Below, piece after piece: positions 36,028 to 40,308 of a DNA stretch of 64,000 nt. A program made the position numbers and the translations under genes. This stretch comes from Candidatus Eremiobacteria bacterium (GTDB lineage Bacteria > Vulcanimicrobiota > Vulcanimicrobiia > Vulcanimicrobiales > Vulcanimicrobiaceae). The notes beneath the pieces are model-generated. The model was not told the origin of the DNA. It saw only the letters and a program-made list of their open reading frames with translations, and did no database searches. Location of the stretch: NCBI GenBank assembly GCA_963758295.1, contig CAVWUU010000006.1:64001-128000 (forward strand), read 5' to 3'. How positions within the stretch are numbered: the stretch's first letter is position 1; every line of letters starts with the position of its first letter.

Positions 36028-37947
36028 TCAGCGACGTTTAGTTGTCGATTTCTTTTTCGTCGTCGTTCCTTTAGATGACGGCTTCGAGGCTTTCTTTACC
36101 GGCCTCGATGCGACGGCTTTTTTCGCCGCCGTTGGTTTTGCAGCACTCTTTGCTGCCGGTTTCTTCGCTTTCGGCGCAGCCTTCGTTGCTGTCTTCTTGG
36201 CCGGCGCCTTCTTGCTTGTGCTCGCAGCTTTCTTCGGCGCGAGTTTCTTCGCTGCGGGTTTTGCAGCGTTCGTCTTTCCCGCCGGCTTTGCCGCTGGTTT
36301 TGCGGCGCTCTTTTTTGCGGCCGGTTTTGCGGCCGGTTTTGCGGCCGGTTTTGCGGCGACGGTCTTTTTCGCCGTCGCGGCTTTTACCGGCGCTTTAGCG
36401 ACGGGTGCTTTACGGGCGGGCGCAGCTTTTGCTGCGGCAGCCTTTACCGGAGCTTTTGCCGCGGGCGCCTTAGCAGCGGCCGGCGCTTTAACAACGGCGT
36501 GGACCTTGTCTGCAGCCGGGGGTTTTACGGCCGCCGCCGCTTTTGCGGCAGCCGGTTTTTCGGCCGTTTTTTTCGCCGGTTTTTCGGCAACCGGTTCTGG
36601 TTGGGGTTCCCGCGCCGGTGCAGCCGCAGGCTTTGCAGACGCTGGGCGGCGTTTGGTTTTTTTTGCGGTGTCGGGCTGCGGCGTTTGTTCTTGCTCGGAT
36701 TCGTCTTTGGCTTGAGCGGCTTGTTCTTTCGCCGCAGCGGAAGATGCCGCGGACGCGGCCGAACGTCGCGACGTGCTCTTGGCCGGCGCCTCCTCCGCTT
36801 CCGGAGTTTTCGTCGTGCGCGCCGGGCTGCTCGCACGTTTCTTCGGACTCGTGTCGCGTCGCGTCTTCGGTGCCTCGTCGGGGGAGCGTTCCGGTTCCTC
36901 AGGCAACCCCAGTTCCGCGCGGCTCAAACCGCTGATACTGCTGCCCGGCTGGACCGGCTCTTGCGTCTTCTGCTGTTTTTCGATGTGTTCTTTAGTGGCG
37001 CGGAGCGCAACGCGCGCGAGCCGGCCGCCAACCGGGAAGACGATCTCGTTGACGTCGCAGTCGTCGAGCATCTGCAGCACGACGTCGAAGGCCGCGCCTT
37101 GGTCTTTCGGGCTGTGCGCGGCCGATCCAACGGCAATCGGAACGTTTTTTGCCTTCGCTTTGCGCATCAGACGTTTGTTGACGTCGATGAAGCGCCGGCG
37201 CTGCTCGTCGGGAAGATCGCGATAAAGCTCCCGAGTGCAGACTTCGATGGCCATGCCGCGCGCAAGCACGGCTTCCAGCATGCGGTCTTCGTACTGCTGA
37301 AGTTTTGCATCGTCCGGCCAGTGCCCGAACGTCGCCGGGCGATAGAAATTGCCGACGATGTGTCCCGGGAGTTTTTCGACGTCGTCTACGAGACGTTCGA
37401 TGTAAAGTTCCCATACGCGCTCAGCGCCGACGGCTTCGAAGAAATGGGCGAACTCGGGATTGTCAAATGCCCACGCGTACTCGCCGCCCTTTTCCGGGTG
37501 GTCGATCGTGATGAACTTGACCGAGCGGATCATGCCGTCGGGGCGCATCGCGTCGACGATATTTTGCGCGTCTGGTCTTGCGCGAGGATCGTTGTCGACC
37601 TCGGCGCCGATCGAATACCGCATGCCGCGGCGCAGGCCTTCGCCCACGACGGCCGCATGCGCGACATCTACGCCAGCGGTTTCCGCCGCACCGTACAAGT
37701 CGCCGGCATGCGCAAGCTTCAGCGCGCGGCGAACGGTGTTCACAGCTCCCGGATCTTCGAACGTGAGGTAGTTGACGTGGTCCGAGACCATCAGAAAGCG
37801 AGGCGAATTCCGCCGGCATGCATGATAGAACCAGAGGAAGAGCATGCGCGCGGAGTACGCGATGGGCCGCTCCTCGGTGAACGGTCTGTGCTCGCCTTTG
37901 GCATGACCGTGGATGTCGGGGATGGCCGCGATACGTGGGTCGCTCAG
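36028..37947 (-). CDS. Degenerate PHP-domain protein with a long Lys/Ala/Pro-rich histone H1-like C-terminal tail
   Basis: DIHGH, SDH, GAE, IEV, GSAAH (PHP motifs); C-terminal ~200 aa of KPAA/KAPA/AKK repeats; start uncertain (CTG 37947 or upstream GTG/ATG up to 38037). Confidence 0.8.
   Translation of the reverse strand: MSDPRIAAIPDIHGHAKGEHRPFTEERPIAYSARMLFLWFYHACRRNSPRFLMVSDHVNYLTFEDPGAVNTVRRALKLAHAGDLYGAAETAGVDVAHAAVVGEGLRRGMRYSIGAEVDNDPRARPDAQNIVDAMRPDGMIRSVKFITIDHPEKGGEYAWAFDNPEFAHFFEAVGAERVWELYIERLVDDVEKLPGHIVGNFYRPATFGHWPDDAKLQQYEDRMLEAVLARGMAIEVCTRELYRDLPDEQRRRFIDVNKRLMRKAKAKNVPIAVGSAAHSPKDQGAAFDVVLQMLDDCDVNEIVFPVGGRLARVALRATKEHIEKQQKTQEPVQPGSSISGLSRAELGLPEEPERSPDEAPKTRRDTSPKKRASSPARTTKTPEAEEAPAKSTSRRSAASAASSAAAKEQAAQAKDESEQEQTPQPDTAKKTKRRPASAKPAAAPAREPQPEPVAEKPAKKTAEKPAAAKAAAAVKPPAADKVHAVVKAPAAAKAPAAKAPVKAAAAKAAPARKAPVAKAPVKAATAKKTVAAKPAAKPAAKPAAKKSAAKPAAKPAGKTNAAKPAAKKLAPKKAASTSKKAPAKKTATKAAPKAKKPAAKSAAKPTAAKKAVASRPVKKASKPSSKGTTTKKKSTTKRR
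36313..36357. repeat. 12-bp tandem repeat (ttttgcggccgg, about 3.75 copies) encoding KPAA
   Basis: Directly visible in the sequence. Confidence 0.9.
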
Positions 37948-38651
37948 CGTTCTACTTCCTTTACACCGCGGGGAATCCACATCGAACGGCCCTTTTCTTG
38001 CGCTCGTTTCGCTTCGGGCGTCCGTTGCTCGACCCACGGTACGATGGTTTCCAGTAAAATTTCGATCCCTCGTTTCATCGTGTCAAGCGACATCGAGGGA
38101 GCAGATTGCGCGCCTGCCGTGATGGCTTGCGCGGGCAGATACGGCAAATGCACTAAGCCGGCAACGACCGGCGAATGCGATTGATCGTTTAGCGCCAGGG
38201 TTTCGTACAGCACTTGATTACCGACGAACGTGCCTGCCGCGTTGGAAACGTACCCCGGAACGGCGTTTGCGTTCCACGCTTCGACGATCCGATCGAAAGG
38301 CAGATTCGAAAGACGCGCTTCCGGCCCGCCGCGTGCGATCGCGTCGTTTTTACGCATAACGCCGACGTTATCGGGCGTGTCGAAATCCAGGAGGTTAACG
38401 GCGATGCGTTCGAGCGAAAGCGCCGGACGGCCGCCCATCTGCGACAAGCAAACCACGACGTCGGGATTTTCCTGGACCAGCGCTTGTTCCATCCGTTCCC
38501 GGATGTTGCGCGTTTCCACCGGAAAGATCCTAACAGCAACGGACCGCCCGGAGATCATAGAGTTCTCCAGACTGCGCGCGACCATCTCGCTCGGATTTAT
38601 CTTCTCGCCACCGAATGGTTCGAACCCGGTGATCAGGACGTGCTTTGCCAC
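37944..38651 (-). CDS. pcp: Pyroglutamyl-peptidase I homolog with catalytic Cys replaced by Gly
   Basis: LITGFEPFGGEKINPS, LERIAVN, PDN.G, SNAAGTFVGN (canonical AGTFVCN), HLPY; GTG 38651 after AAGAAG. Confidence 0.85.
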   Translation of the reverse strand: MAKHVLITGFEPFGGEKINPSEMVARSLENSMISGRSVAVRIFPVETRNIRERMEQALVQENPDVVVCLSQMGGRPALSLERIAVNLLDFDTPDNVGVMRKNDAIARGGPEARLSNLPFDRIVEAWNANAVPGYVSNAAGTFVGNQVLYETLALNDQSHSPVVAGLVHLPYLPAQAITAGAQSAPSMSLDTMKRGIEILLETIVPWVEQRTPEAKRAQEKGRSMWIPRGVKEVER

Positions 38652-38680
38652 CTTCTTTAAGGTTGGCTCTTGCGCACGGG

Positions 38681-39421
38681 CTACCTCTCGGGTTGGTAAC
38701 CTTCCATGCGTAGGATTCGCGCCTTCATCTCGATGCCGTAGCCGTAGTTGTGCAGATCGCCCGCGGAATCTACCACGCGGTGGCATGGAAACAAGAGTGG
38801 AAGCGGATTGCGCGCCATCACTTGGCCGACCGCACGCGCGGCGCGGGGGCGGCCCATTTGCGTCGCAACCCAGGAATAGGATCGGACTTCTCCCGGCGGA
38901 ATCTCGGCTGCCGCTCGCAACGCCGCCTGCTCGAACGGGGTGAGGTCGCTGATGTCGACCTTCTTGTCATCGACGCGCCAGGTTTTGAAAAATTCATCGA
39001 GGGTCGCCTTGAGCCACGCGGGCGGCTCGCCGGCTTGAACGCTTCGCCGCAGCCGGGTTTCGACGCGCTCGCGAACCCGTTCGAACGGCTCCCCGGTGTC
39101 GATGCCGATGTACGCGATGCGGTTCTCTTTGAAGCCGACGTAAAGCCGGCCGACCGGCGTCTCGACCGATGTGAGCGCAATCGGCGTCGGACGTTCTTTG
39201 TATTTGGTTTGCGCGATGTGTTGTACCACGCGTTTGGCCAAGTCGCACGACGGCTCAGGCTTCGGCAGGCACGAGAGGCAATAAGCGACTCCCTCGTACT
39301 GTTCGTAAAGCTCTTGGCACGGCGGGCACGTGCGCAGATGCGTTTCGACGGCGTCCTTTACCGACCGCTGGCACTCGCCGCGGATTTCGTCCCACAGCGA
39401 TTCGACGTCACGACAACGCAT
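38681..39421 (-). CDS. ogt: Fusion of a zinc-finger anti-sigma (ZAS/zf-HC2) domain and O6-methylguanine-DNA methyltransferase
   Basis: N-terminal C-x24-H-x3-C-x2-C (MRC...HLRTCPPC); C-terminal TPF, IPPGEVRSY, RAARAVG, NPLP..FPCHRVV; ATG 39421 after AAGGAG. Confidence 0.9.
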   Translation of the reverse strand: MRCRDVESLWDEIRGECQRSVKDAVETHLRTCPPCQELYEQYEGVAYCLSCLPKPEPSCDLAKRVVQHIAQTKYKERPTPIALTSVETPVGRLYVGFKENRIAYIGIDTGEPFERVRERVETRLRRSVQAGEPPAWLKATLDEFFKTWRVDDKKVDISDLTPFEQAALRAAAEIPPGEVRSYSWVATQMGRPRAARAVGQVMARNPLPLLFPCHRVVDSAGDLHNYGYGIEMKARILRMEGYQPER

Positions 39422-40076
39422 GAACGGAGGCTCCTTCAGAGGGAATTCGACCAATTTGCGGCCCGAGAATTTTCCGCAGAATGCGCACGGCGCGATGCAC
39501 GTGCGACTTCACCGTGCCGATTGGCTGGTGAAGGATCTCGGCGATTTCCGGATGGCTGCGACCTTCGATGAAGCGCAGTGTTGCTGCGGCGCGAAGGTGC
39601 ATCGGAAGTTGTAAGAGCGCCCGTTCGACGAGCGCGACCTCGGCGTTCTGCTCGACGATGGTTTCCGGGCGAGCCGGCCCTTCTTGCGTCTCGCGAAGCA
39701 GCGCGTCGGGATCGGCGAGTGAGTCGAGGGCGACGCTCGTCGGACGTTTGCTGCGCAGGCGGTTGCGAGTAACGTTCAACGTGATGGTGTATAGCCATGG
39801 TTGGAGCCGCAGCTCACGCCGCTGTTCCTCGGACATTTTGCCGAGCGCGCGATAGGCGCGTACGAATGAATCTTGGACGATCTCTTCGGCGTCTTCGCGA
39901 TTGCCCGTCATACGCAAAGCAAATCCGTAGAGGCGACGCTGATAGTCGTCTACGATTGTGTCGAAGTTGTCCGGTGCAGGTACCGGCTTGCCTTCTGCCC
40001 GTTCTGACGAGGGCTTCGGCTGCTGGACCGTAGGTGGCACGAATACTCCCTGGAGGAGTGGTGCGAGCGCGCTCAT
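39408..40076 (-). CDS. ECF RNA polymerase sigma factor
   Basis: Region 2 DAEEIVQDSF...WLYTI..N; region 4 EIAEIL..PIGTVKSHVHRA; no region 3. Confidence 0.95.
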   Translation of the reverse strand: MSALAPLLQGVFVPPTVQQPKPSSERAEGKPVPAPDNFDTIVDDYQRRLYGFALRMTGNREDAEEIVQDSFVRAYRALGKMSEEQRRELRLQPWLYTITLNVTRNRLRSKRPTSVALDSLADPDALLRETQEGPARPETIVEQNAEVALVERALLQLPMHLRAAATLRFIEGRSHPEIAEILHQPIGTVKSHVHRAVRILRKILGPQIGRIPSEGASVHALS

Positions 40077-40088
40077 ACGTGGACTCAG

Positions 40089-40116
40089 GACCGCTCCTCG
40101 ATACCGCGAGGTTTCA
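40089..40116 (-). promoter_or_regulatory. Putative autoregulatory ECF promoter
   Basis: Minus strand TGAAACC-N16-CGGTC, ending 12 nt before the ATG; fits the AAC/GTC ECF pattern. Confidence 0.5.
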
Positions 40117-40308
40117 CGCCCGGGCGATAATCTCCTCAGCCTTTTATTTACCCTCGATGTTGCGAGAAGGGTCTCCTTGCGCGCGGTCGAGAACCCTCAT
40201 TCATGGTACAGGAATTGCCGCACGCACCATCTTTGAACCGCCGTTGATCGCGCTCGCGACACGGCGGTTTTCATTTGCGGCAAGGAAAGTTTTATGAGGT
40301 TAAAGCTT

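What the first reader, a model, noticed from the sequence alone, without database searches (positions are those of the whole stretch)
38681..40116. ECF sigma factor paired with a ZAS anti-sigma::O6-alkylguanine methyltransferase fusion: candidate Ada-independent alkylation switch
Seen: the ECF sigma gene overlaps (14 nt) a soluble 246-aa protein. Its N-terminus has a complete ZAS motif (C3-x24-H28-x3-C32-x2-C35) plus extra Cys (C17, C48xxC51, C59). Its C-terminus is an Ogt domain with intact RAVG and PCHRV motifs. An ECF-like promoter precedes the sigma gene. Known: ZAS domains sequester cognate ECFs (RsrA, ChrR, RsiW); Ogt is irreversibly self-alkylated; Ada couples such alkylation to transcription through an AraC-type domain. 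Inference: suicide methylation of the Ogt Cys, or alkylation/oxidation of the Zn thiolates, releases the sigma, so the repair enzyme itself is the sensor. I cannot confirm how far this has been described.
Basis: partly seen in the sequence, partly recalled or inferred. Interest (0 to 1): 0.88.

Follow-up and report, generated by a model that had tools for sequence, protein, structure and literature searches.

The report
Anti-sigma factor fused to suicide DNA-repair enzyme
A soil bacterium makes an alternative sigma factor together with a probable inhibitor that is itself a single-use DNA alkylation-repair enzyme, so using up the enzyme may switch on its own replacement, a control circuit that nobody has tested.

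Summary
An ECF sigma gene (39408..40076, minus strand) overlaps by 14 nt a soluble 246-aa protein (38681..39421). That protein has an N-terminal zinc anti-sigma domain (C3, H28-x3-C32-x2-C35) and a complete Ogt with its active site intact.

The pair is syntenic in 33 of 33 related loci. It is preceded in 31 of 31 by an invariant ECF-type promoter, GTGAAACC-N16/17-GGTC. In five near-complete genomes the fusion is the only Ogt-family protein with a catalytic cysteine.

A complex prediction places only the ZAS domain (residues 7-72) between sigma regions 2 and 4 (score 0.76, best control 0.00). Distant relatives in Acidobacteriota and Chloroflexota add an Ada zinc domain (ZAS-Ogt-AdaZn) and always follow an ECF sigma.

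ECF-Ogt linkage is already catalogued for Actinobacteria (ECF122, ECF203), but there "without anti-sigma factor" and with unknown mechanism. I found no paper describing Ogt as the anti-sigma. This scan noted similar fusions twice on other DNA.

My best reading is a consumption-sensing anti-sigma: alkylation of the fusion releases sigma. The trigger, whether the Ogt cysteine or the zinc thiolates, is untested. I class it as a new variant of a known kind.

The parts
40089..40117 (-). Conserved ECF-type promoter: GTGAAACC (-35, 40117..40110), 17-nt spacer, GGTC (-10, 40092..40089). It ends 12 nt before the sigma ATG, so the mRNA leader is very short.
   Evidence: Alignment of 31 orthologous upstream regions: TGAAACC is present in 31 of 31, followed after 16-17 nt by [GT]GT[CT], at a constant distance from the ATG. 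The sigma-70 consensus scan finds nothing here.
39408..40076 (-). ECF sigma factor gene, 222 aa. Regions 2 and 4 only, plus a conserved ~35-aa N-terminal extension (MSxLAPL...).
   Evidence: Pfam Sigma70_r2 (2.6e-15) and Sigma70_r4_2 (2.2e-13). TIGR02937 sigma70-ECF 3.5e-26. The N-terminus is conserved in orthologs.
39203..39421 (-). Zinc-binding anti-sigma (ZAS/ASD) domain of the fusion, residues 1-73. Four helices. Zn ligands C3, H28, C32, C35. Lineage-specific extra cysteines C17, C48, C51, C59.
   Evidence: zf-HC2 6-36. The profile of 14 N-termini has RsiW 5wuq_C as its best PDB match, E 1.5e-4. Predicted helices 3-14, 19-31, 33-50, 61-73. All confident contacts to sigma lie in residues 7-72.
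38972..39184 (-). Ogt N-terminal (ribonuclease-like) domain, residues ~80-150.
   Evidence: NF007626 (E. coli Ogt) aligns 86-242. Predicted strands 81-107 plus a helix. Foldseek aligns ~170 columns to whole Ogt structures. Methyltransf_1N is hit in relatives.
38699..38938 (-). Ogt C-terminal DNA-binding/alkyl-acceptor domain, residues 162-241. The active site P212-C213-H214-R215 lies at nt 38777..38788.
   Evidence: PF01035 3.5e-28. M. tuberculosis OGT 4bhb 7.6e-18 with all key residues aligned. Catalytic residues invariant in 41 of 41.
38681..39421 (-). Whole ZAS::Ogt fusion gene (246 aa plus stop). It overlaps the sigma gene by 14 nt.
   Evidence: 948 homologs. The same overlap is found in 33 of 33 orthologous loci.
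37944..38660 (-). Pyroglutamyl peptidase I (pcp) gene, directly downstream on the same strand. It is a probable third gene of the operon. Its start codon is not settled.
   Evidence: Peptidase_C15 1.3e-55. It lies directly downstream on the same strand in 30 of 33 orthologous loci.

Best explanation
This is a two-gene (probably three-gene) autoregulated operon.

The ECF sigma factor is held inactive by the ZAS domain of the downstream protein. The rest of that protein is a complete, catalytically competent O6-alkylguanine-DNA alkyltransferase. In many relatives it is the cell's only such enzyme.

Ogt is consumed one molecule per lesion, so the pool of intact fusion protein falls when DNA is alkylated. 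I propose that the self-alkylated fusion is destabilised or degraded, or that its zinc thiolates are alkylated. Either event frees sigma, which then transcribes its own operon from the GTGAAACC-N17-GGTC promoter. In this genome sigma would also transcribe a second, stand-alone ogt gene. Fresh fusion protein then recaptures sigma.

The repair enzyme would thus be both the sensor and the output, a consumption-coupled homeostat.

Shown here: the domain architecture, its conservation, the synteny, the conserved promoter, and the predicted ZAS-sigma interface.

Inferred: binding in the cell, induction by alkylation, and above all the step that links alkyl transfer to sigma release.
For: (1) Architecture and invariant residues of both halves in 41 of 41 aligned members.

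(2) Sigma lies directly upstream with the same 14-nt overlap in 33 of 33 close loci. One of the 33 is the window itself, two are the same sequence, and one (L092) is from an unpublished genome. Sigma is also directly upstream in 10 of 10 ZAS-bearing loci of the 80 fetched from other genomes.

(3) Predicted complex: score 0.76 against a best control of 0.00. That mark was reached by 116 of 157 solved complexes and 2 of 215 mismatched pairs. The runs agree in at least 78% of contacts and the partner pLDDT is at least 85. Fusion residues 7-72 touch sigma 38-75 (region 2) and 147-209 (region 4).

(4) An autoregulation-type promoter is conserved in 31 of 31 loci.

(5) The strict motif occurs only 5 times in the 3.03-Mb genome. 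One copy sits 17 nt before the ATG of the stand-alone Ogt paralog. By my own arithmetic the chance of this is about 1e-4.

(6) In 5 of 5 near-complete genomes (96-100% complete; I chose them because one search listed a single match) the fusion is the only PF01035 protein with a PCHR cysteine. The 4 other hits are Cys-less PAHR/PWHR ATL-like proteins.

(7) 11 of 18 distant relatives carry a further alkyl-acceptor sensor module, Ada_Zn_binding, on the same anti-sigma. One such locus continues with a second Ogt-AdaZn gene and an HhH-GPD glycosylase.

(8) No Ada_Zn_binding domain was found in this genome, which is 82% complete.
Against: No experiment or expression data exist.

The complex score may partly reflect memory of solved ZAS-sigma complexes. 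It shows no confident contact of the Ogt domain with sigma, so nothing in the model explains how Cys213 alkylation would be transmitted.

The promoter motif is not enriched genome-wide. I count 5 hits against about 8 expected from 265 TGAAACC sites.

The stand-alone ogt with the motif was found in only 2 of 61 family genomes, and its one ortholog lacks the motif. No motif lies before the AraC::Ogt or ATL genes.

Many sigma-linked Ogt genes in other phyla lack the ZAS domain: about 32 of the 42 sigma-linked loci. Ogt could therefore be merely the regulated product.

pcp, a gene with no known link to alkylation, is in the same operon in 30 of 33 loci.
Confidence: 0.5

Rival explanations
1. RsrA-like thiol switch with a repair enzyme as cargo. 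The ZAS zinc thiolates, and the four extra cysteines of this lineage, are the only sensor. They react with oxidants or soft electrophiles, including SN2 alkylators, and release sigma. The Ogt domain is simply the effector, delivered in fixed 1:1 stoichiometry, and its Cys213 plays no part in signalling.
For: The ZAS ligands are invariant. C17 and C59 are present in 23 of 23 close orthologs and C48 and C51 in 21 of 23, against 0-2 of 18 distant relatives. Residues 44-59, which hold C48, C51 and C59, make the most confident predicted contacts to sigma region 4. No predicted Ogt-sigma contact exists. Redox sensing by ZAS domains such as RsrA is established knowledge (recalled).
Against: This does not explain why Ogt, and in other phyla Ogt plus the Ada zinc domain, is the constant partner of this sigma while the ZAS part comes and goes. 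The sigma tree needs at least 3 changes of the ZAS label. The extra cysteines are not needed in the distant ZAS-Ogt-AdaZn forms.
Confidence: 0.3
2. Constitutive feedback brake without a signal. The fusion binds sigma only to set a steady Ogt level. Alternatively, sigma is controlled elsewhere and Ogt is simply a co-transcribed regulon member, as the published description of ECF122 and ECF203 assumes.
For: About 32 of the 42 sigma-linked Ogt genes in other lineages lack a ZAS domain. Published notes say 'no putative anti-sigma factor' for ECF122 and ECF203. Genes downstream of the pair vary between lineages: pcp, a SpoIIE phosphatase, or nothing conserved.
Against: A complete ZAS motif is invariant over 29-91% identity, and a high-scoring specific interface is predicted. 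Both argue for a working anti-sigma. An anti-sigma that is never released would make the sigma useless.
Confidence: 0.12
3. The N-terminal domain is a degenerate zinc finger with another role, such as DNA or protein tethering of Ogt, and is not an anti-sigma domain.
For: The Pfam zf-HC2 score is 22.1 bits, just below the 22.2-bit cut-off. Precomputed Pfam lists it for only 2 of the 120 listed homologs.
Against: The profile search gives anti-sigma factors as the best solved matches: RsiW 1.5e-4, RslA 0.003, DdvA 0.0036. NCBIfam gives anti-sigma and RsrA hits. The domain is strictly coupled to a sigma gene. The complex prediction also argues against this reading.
Confidence: 0.05

Closest known systems
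ChrR-SigE (Rhodobacter) and RsrA-SigR (Streptomyces): soluble zinc anti-sigma factors
   Same: Soluble ASD with the H-x3-C-x2-C zinc motif, encoded directly after and co-transcribed with an autoregulated ECF sigma. It is predicted to sit between sigma regions 2 and 4. Like ChrR, it has an N-terminal ASD followed by a C-terminal domain that could receive the signal.
   Different: The C-terminal domain is a complete suicide DNA-repair enzyme (Ogt) rather than a cupin, and rather than nothing. The proposed signal is irreversible alkyl transfer, not singlet oxygen or disulfide stress. My comparison with ChrR and RsrA biology is recalled. Only sequence matches to RsiW, RslA, DdvA and (weakly) ChrR come.
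E. coli Ada (adaptive response to alkylation)
   Same: A protein that repairs alkylated DNA by irreversible self-alkylation is also the transcriptional switch for more repair protein. Distant relatives of this fusion even carry the Ada zinc domain.
   Different: There is no AraC-type DNA-binding domain and, in this lineage, no Ada zinc domain. Output would be through release of a sigma factor, not through direct promoter binding. In Ada the activating event is methylation of the N-terminal zinc cysteine (recalled). Here the acceptor is unknown.
ECF122 and ECF203 groups of the ECF classification (Casas-Pastor et al. 2021, PMC7826278 supplement; review PMC8999054)
   Same: An ECF sigma with an O6-methylguanine methyltransferase encoded at position +1, in ECF203 together with an Ada_Zn_binding domain. 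The inferred role is in DNA-damage repair and the mechanism is listed as unknown.
   Different: Those groups are described as 100% Actinobacteria, with 'no putative anti-sigma factor', and for ECF122 with promoter motif CTCAC / CGTCTAC. Here the phylum is Eremiobacterota, the Ogt carries a full ZAS domain, and the promoter is GTGAAACC / GGTC. I could not run the ECF classifier, so group membership is untested.
Earlier notes of this scan (e1-4829936, e1-4600269)
   Same: An ECF sigma paired with ZAS/Ogt/Ada-zinc or Ogt-Ada-zinc fusions on other genomes, read in the same way.
   Different: This window holds the shorter ZAS::Ogt form without the Ada zinc domain, but with four extra cysteines. Here it is shown to be near-universal in one bacterial family.

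Membership tests
Class I (zinc-binding) anti-sigma domain, ZAS | H-x3-C-x2-C motif plus an upstream Cys/His fourth ligand | tested here: met
   C3, H28, C32 and C35 are present and invariant in 41 of 41.
Class I (zinc-binding) anti-sigma domain, ZAS | Four-helix ASD fold and sequence relationship to known anti-sigma factors | tested here: met
   Predicted helices 3-14, 19-31, 33-50, 61-73, with block pLDDT 71-93. Profile hits are RsiW 1.5e-4, RslA 0.003, DdvA 0.0036. zf-HC2 scores 22.1 bits, 0.1 below the cut-off.
Class I (zinc-binding) anti-sigma domain, ZAS | Encoded next to and co-transcribed with its ECF sigma | tested here: met
   14-nt overlap. The same arrangement holds in 33 of 33 and 10 of 10 loci.
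Class I (zinc-binding) anti-sigma domain, ZAS | Binds sigma regions 2 and 4 and blocks core binding | tested here: inconclusive
   Prediction only: score 0.76 against a best control of 0.00, with the interface on sigma 38-75 and 147-209. The score may lean on solved look-alikes.
Class I (zinc-binding) anti-sigma domain, ZAS | Binds zinc | not testable with these tools
   Needs metal analysis of the purified protein.
Ogt / MGMT O6-alkylguanine-DNA alkyltransferase | PCHR active site with acceptor cysteine, plus the Tyr, Arg-finger, Asn and Glu of the catalytic network | tested here: met
   Y182, R196, N205, C213, H214, R215 and E240 are invariant in 41 of 41 and aligned to M. tuberculosis OGT. 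The equivalence to human AGT residue numbers is recalled.
Ogt / MGMT O6-alkylguanine-DNA alkyltransferase | Two-domain fold (N-terminal ribonuclease-like domain plus C-terminal HTH) | tested here: met
   Foldseek against 4wxd and 4bhb gives E 2-3e-11, TM 0.73-0.74 on the target, and ~170 aligned columns.
Ogt / MGMT O6-alkylguanine-DNA alkyltransferase | Stoichiometric alkyl transfer from DNA | not testable with these tools
   Biochemical assay needed.
Ada (bifunctional regulator / methyltransferase) | N-terminal Ada_Zn_binding domain (methylphosphotriester acceptor) | tested here: not met
   No PF02805 in the protein or in the genome, which is 82% complete. It is present in 11 of 18 distant relatives, at the C-terminus.
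Ada (bifunctional regulator / methyltransferase) | AraC-type HTH DNA-binding domain | tested here: not met
   Not in this protein. A separate AraC-HTH::Ogt protein exists elsewhere in the genome.
ECF sigma factor | Sigma regions 2 and 4 only, with an ECF-type promoter upstream of its own gene | tested here: met
ECF122 / ECF203 groups | Ogt (with or without Ada_Zn) at +1 | tested here: met
.
ECF122 / ECF203 groups | Actinobacteria only; no anti-sigma; ECF122 promoter CTCAC/CGTCTAC | tested here: not met
   Homologs are named Eremiobacterota/Baltobacteraceae. A ZAS domain is present. The promoter is GTGAAACC/GGTC. In the sigma tree the backbone is unresolved.
ECF122 / ECF203 groups | Assignment by the ECF Hub classifier | not testable with these tools
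   No ECF group models are available here.

The most novel reading that the evidence does not exclude
The suicide enzyme is the receptor. Irreversible alkyl transfer to Cys213 turns the anti-sigma into an unstable or non-binding form. In relatives the acceptor could be the Ada-type zinc site, and in this lineage perhaps a second cysteine cluster, C17/C48/C51/C59. The cell would then count lesions by counting spent repair molecules. By extension, the 'orphan' ECF122/ECF203-type sigmas, whose Ogt partners keep only a ~30-residue remnant equivalent to ASD helices III-IV, would be controlled by their Ogt in the same way. This would define a widespread class of consumption-sensing anti-sigma factors spanning at least six phyla.
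Probability: 0.35. Interest if true: 0.8.

Novelty: new variant of a known kind. Interest (0 to 1): 0.68.

Why it matters
Outside the Ada paradigm, it is poorly known how bacteria sense alkylation damage. Several ECF sigma groups linked to Ogt are listed in the literature as having no anti-sigma factor and an unknown mechanism.

If the Ogt fusion is the anti-sigma, it supplies that missing mechanism. It would add a new kind of input to anti-sigma signalling, namely irreversible consumption of an enzyme. It would also give a compact, orthogonal, alkylation-responsive switch.

The system is small, with two soluble proteins and one promoter. It is directly testable in E. coli or in vitro, although the host is uncultured.

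Tried and rejected
- **The search for related loci with the 19-sequence alignment A2** failed because it had no conserved stretch. I repeated it with the 8-sequence alignment A3.
- **Regulon search.** The strict motif gave 5 genome hits, with no enrichment. The two other hits that have a downstream ORF lie 141 and 195 nt before it, and I took them as chance. The relaxed GAAACC scan (41 hits) gave nothing convincing, and nothing before the AraC::Ogt or ATL genes.
- **Comparative confirmation of the stand-alone ogt promoter** failed. That paralog was found in only 2 of 61 family genomes at E<=1e-30, and its one ortholog has no motif.
- **The promoter motif upstream of sigma genes in other phyla** was found in 1 of 38 loci, L025.
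- **The sigma tree** did not resolve whether all Ogt-linked sigmas form one clade against the genome's 9 other ECF paralogs.
- **Rfam on the divergent intergenic region** gave no match. The sigma-70 and terminator scan gave nothing relevant.
- **RNA data.** No RNA holder was listed.
I could not measure whether C17, C48, C51 and C59 cluster.
- **Literature searches** for a description of an Ogt-type anti-sigma returned only the ECF review and unrelated papers, which I judged from the listings only.
- **P0132 and P0182** are garbled, frameshift-like sequences. I dropped them from the alignments.
Full report
**Observation**

The minus strand of the window carries an ECF sigma gene (39408..40076, 222 aa) and, overlapping it by 14 nt, a 246-aa ORF (38681..39421). 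The ATG at 39421 is preceded by AAGGAG 8 nt upstream. It is the conserved start in all orthologs.

- Pfam finds DNA_binding_1 at residues 162-241 (3.5e-28) and zf-HC2 at 6-36 (1.7e-4, 22.1 bits against a cut-off of 22.2). It finds Sigma70_r2 and r4_2 in the sigma.
- In NCBIfam the E. coli Ogt model aligns residues 86-242. The search also gives weak anti-sigma and RsrA hits on the N-terminus.
- The protein has no hydrophobic segment (maximal KD over 19 residues is 0.69).
- The AlphaFold model (pLDDT 89.7) shows four N-terminal helices followed by the two Ogt domains.
- Foldseek matches whole Ogt structures: M. tuberculosis OGT at 2e-11 and TM 0.74 on the target. phmmer aligns the active-site region to 4bhb at 7.6e-18.
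- A profile of 14 N-termini has B. subtilis RsiW as its best solved match (1.5e-4, over positions 1-67), then RslA (3hug_B) and DdvA.

**Conservation**

The search for homologous proteins returns 948 relatives. The best 120 are 242-247 aa long with 72-100% identity. Where they are named, they are called only 'methylated-DNA-protein-cysteine methyltransferase', from Eremiobacterota / Baltobacteraceae / Aquilonibacter MAGs.

I searched 401 genomes of the phylum (11 are unpublished genomes, which enter these tallies). A match occurs in 289 of 296 genomes of the window's family and in 5 of 5 genomes of a second family of the same order. By my reading of the table, about 285 of the 296 have E below 1e-40. 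The other families give only generic Ogt-level matches, at 1e-11 to 1e-23.

I examined 33 close loci. One is the window itself, L089 and L033 are the same sequence, and L092 is from an unpublished genome. In all 33 the sigma gene lies directly upstream with the same overlap. pcp follows on the same strand in 30 of 33. A divergent 135-aa gene of no known family precedes in 31 of 33.

In a 41-sequence alignment (23 close sequences and 18 distant ones at 29-50% identity), these positions are invariant: C3, H28, C32, C35, Y182, R196, N205, C213, H214, R215 and E240. Among the extra cysteines, C17 and C59 are present in 23 of 23 close sequences and C48 and C51 in 21 of 23. They are present in 0-2 of the 18 distant sequences.

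**The fusion as the working repair enzyme**

The window's own genome has four PF01035 genes:

- the fusion;
- an AraC-HTH::Ogt protein (274 aa, PCHR);
- a plain Ogt (174 aa, PCHR);
- an ATL-like protein (PAHR).

I chose five family genomes of 96-100% completeness because one search listed one match in each. In these the fusion is the only PF01035 hit with a cysteine. The four additional hits read PAHR or PWHR, and G018 has no second hit.

**Promoter and regulon**

I aligned 31 upstream regions. L087 was dropped because the contig ends there, and L092 because it is unpublished. The alignment shows GTGAAACC, then 16-17 nt, then GGTC/TGTT/GGTT. This element is invariant at a fixed 37-40 nt before the ATG (46 nt in L089 and L033, where my start estimate was offset), within otherwise diverged sequence. 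It is the signature of an autoregulated ECF promoter with a very short leader.

The strict motif occurs five times in the 3.03-Mb genome, against about 8 expected from 265 TGAAACC sites. The motif alone is therefore not specific. However, one copy is the sigma's own promoter. Another is GTGAAACC-N16-GGTT, 17 nt before the ATG of the stand-alone Ogt paralog. By my arithmetic the chance of that placement is about 1e-4.

This link could not be confirmed comparatively. That paralog was found in only 2 of 61 family genomes, and its one ortholog lacks the motif.

**Binding**

I predicted the complex of the full-length sigma and the full-length fusion, using my own alignments of 28 and 41 rows. The score was 0.76 (three runs: 0.73-0.77) against a best control of 0.00. 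The mark was reached by 116 of 157 solved complexes and 2 of 215 mismatched pairs. The runs agree in at least 78% of contacts, and the partner pLDDT is at least 85.

All confident contacts of the fusion lie in residues 7-72. They touch sigma 38-75 (region 2) and 147-209 (region 4), which is the classical anti-sigma sandwich. ZAS-sigma complexes have been solved, so this pass shows likeness and is not proof. No confident Ogt-sigma contact appears.

**The wider family**

The exhaustive representative search found about 19 clusters at 29-50% identity that align from residue 1 onwards. Of the 18 clean ones, 11 carry a C-terminal Ada_Zn_binding domain, giving ZAS-Ogt-AdaZn proteins of 297-312 aa. 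Named members come from Chloroflexota, Acidobacteriota and Vulcanimicrobiaceae.

I fetched 80 genome loci with these sequences. Forty-two have an ECF sigma directly upstream of the Ogt gene on the same strand. Ten of them have the HxxxCxxC N-terminus, and all ten are sigma-linked. These come from Acidobacteriota, Thermoanaerobaculia, Chloroflexia, Rokubacteria, HR23 and Eremiobacteria.

The other ~32 sigma-linked loci have no ZAS. They come from Acidimicrobiia, Nonomuraea, Streptosporangium, Nocardiopsis, Actinokineospora, Chloroflexota, Dormibacterota, Gaiellaceae and one Eremiobacterota genome. They have only a ~20-35-aa N-terminal extension, and many also have AdaZn. By profile-profile comparison that extension aligns to P0001 residues 44-104, that is the end of helix III, helix IV and the first Ogt strands. 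The probability is 97% and E is 3e-11, with part of the score coming from the Ogt strands.

The sigma tree is unresolved at its base. It places the window's clade next to the Eremiobacterota non-ZAS locus L030 (support 97/91) and requires at least three changes of the ZAS state.

Downstream genes vary between lineages. L006 has a second Ogt-AdaZn gene and an HhH-GPD glycosylase. L008 and L009 have a SpoIIE phosphatase.

**Literature**

The review PMC8999054 (passages seen) lists ECF122 among sigma groups without an anti-sigma and of unknown mechanism, with 6-O-methylguanine methyltransferases as conserved neighbours.

In the supplement of Casas-Pastor et al. 2021 (PMC7826278) I saw passages only, and the file was cut when stored. 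The main text contains none of my terms. The supplement describes ECF122 as 100% Actinobacteria, with Ogt at +1, 'no putative AS factors' and promoter CTCAC/CGTCTAC. It describes ECF203 as Actinobacteria with Ogt at +1, Ada_Zn_binding, TetR and no anti-sigma factor.

Six full-text searches found no paper describing an Ogt-containing anti-sigma. For the other papers they returned I saw only the listings. Subscription journals are not covered.

This scan had noted a ZAS/Ogt/Ada-zinc fusion and an Ogt-Ada-zinc partner on two other genomes.

**Mechanism**

I consider the following well supported:

- the N-domain is the cognate anti-sigma;
- the operon is autoregulated;
- the Ogt half is a working, often unique, repair enzyme.

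I infer that the system responds to alkylation. I base this on the constant Ogt partner, the added Ada zinc module in relatives, the AlkA-like neighbour in one lineage, and the shared promoter on a second ogt gene.

The trigger is open. Two candidates exist:

- **Self-alkylation of Cys213 followed by destabilisation or proteolysis.** That alkylated human and archaeal alkyltransferases are destabilised and degraded is recalled knowledge, not a result of any call here.
- **Alkylation or oxidation of the zinc thiolates.** The lineage-specific cysteines lie at the predicted region-4 interface.

The reciprocal pattern is suggestive but unproven. The Ada zinc domain is present where the extra cysteines are absent, and the reverse. 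A sister lineage (P0122) has only C48 and C51 of the four.

**Limits**

No expression data could be found and no experiment exists. The ECF group was not assigned. Cysteine geometry could not be measured. The counts include unpublished genomes, as stated above.

Noticed in passing
window 40130-40300 (intergenic, between the sigma gene and the divergent gene starting ~40309): Two further elements are conserved across about 28 of the 31 aligned loci. The first is a G+C-rich hairpin (AAAACCGCCGCGTCGC...GCGACCGGCGG). On the + strand it reads as a terminator-like stem followed by a T-run, just before the divergent 135-aa gene. The second is a palindromic ATGGTGCGTGCGGCAC-N-GTGTACCAT element. Rfam gives no match. 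It could be a leader, attenuator or operator of the divergent gene.
   Followed up: partly
window 37944-38660 (-): A pyroglutamyl peptidase I gene sits directly after the fusion on the same strand in 30 of 33 orthologous loci, with gaps of a few bases. I know of no link between pcp and alkylation repair or sigma control.
   Followed up: partly
window 36028-38037 (-): A 669-aa ORF whose C-terminal ~300 residues are an Ala/Lys/Pro-rich, histone-H1-like low-complexity tail. It has no Pfam family.
   Followed up: no
own genome, C1:261549-262117 (locus L002/L115): A stand-alone Ogt (174 aa, PCHR) is preceded by GTGAAACC-N16-GGTT 17 nt before its ATG. This is the same motif as the sigma promoter. 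The gene is rare in the family (2 of 61 genomes).
   Followed up: yes
own genome, loci L001 (C3) and L004 (C4): An AraC-HTH::Ogt fusion without an Ada zinc domain (274 aa), and an ATL-like protein with PAHR in place of PCHR. Two AlkB-like genes are also present (L117, L118).
   Followed up: partly
loci L010-L034, L049 (Acidimicrobiia, Nonomuraea, Chloroflexota and others): Sigma-linked Ogt(-AdaZn) proteins without a ZAS keep a ~30-aa N-terminal segment (L..L...AP..L...VL..GLAD.Y). It aligns with helices III-IV of the ZAS forms (hhalign 97%). It may be a minimal sigma-binding remnant in the groups published as having no anti-sigma factor.
   Followed up: partly
loci L008 3704-4414 and L009 3852-4670: In Thermoanaerobaculia/Acidobacteria, a SpoIIE/PP2C phosphatase gene overlaps the end of the ZAS-Ogt-AdaZn gene. 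This hints at an added partner-switching layer.
   Followed up: no
locus L006 3614-5648: In a Chloroflexia MAG, the sigma and ZAS-Ogt-AdaZn pair is followed by a second (356-aa) Ogt-AdaZn protein and an HhH-GPD (AlkA-like) glycosylase. This is the clearest alkylation-repair operon in the set.
   Followed up: partly
locus L013: A contig labelled 'uncultured Gammaproteobacteria' carries a sigma that groups with Acidimicrobiia locus L014 at 100/99 support. The bin label is probably wrong.
   Followed up: no
proteins P0132 and P0182: Two database representatives look like frameshifted read-throughs of the sigma and fusion genes. P0182 starts with the sigma C-terminus and continues into a garbled fusion. 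These are assembly or gene-calling artefacts, not real triple fusions.
   Followed up: partly
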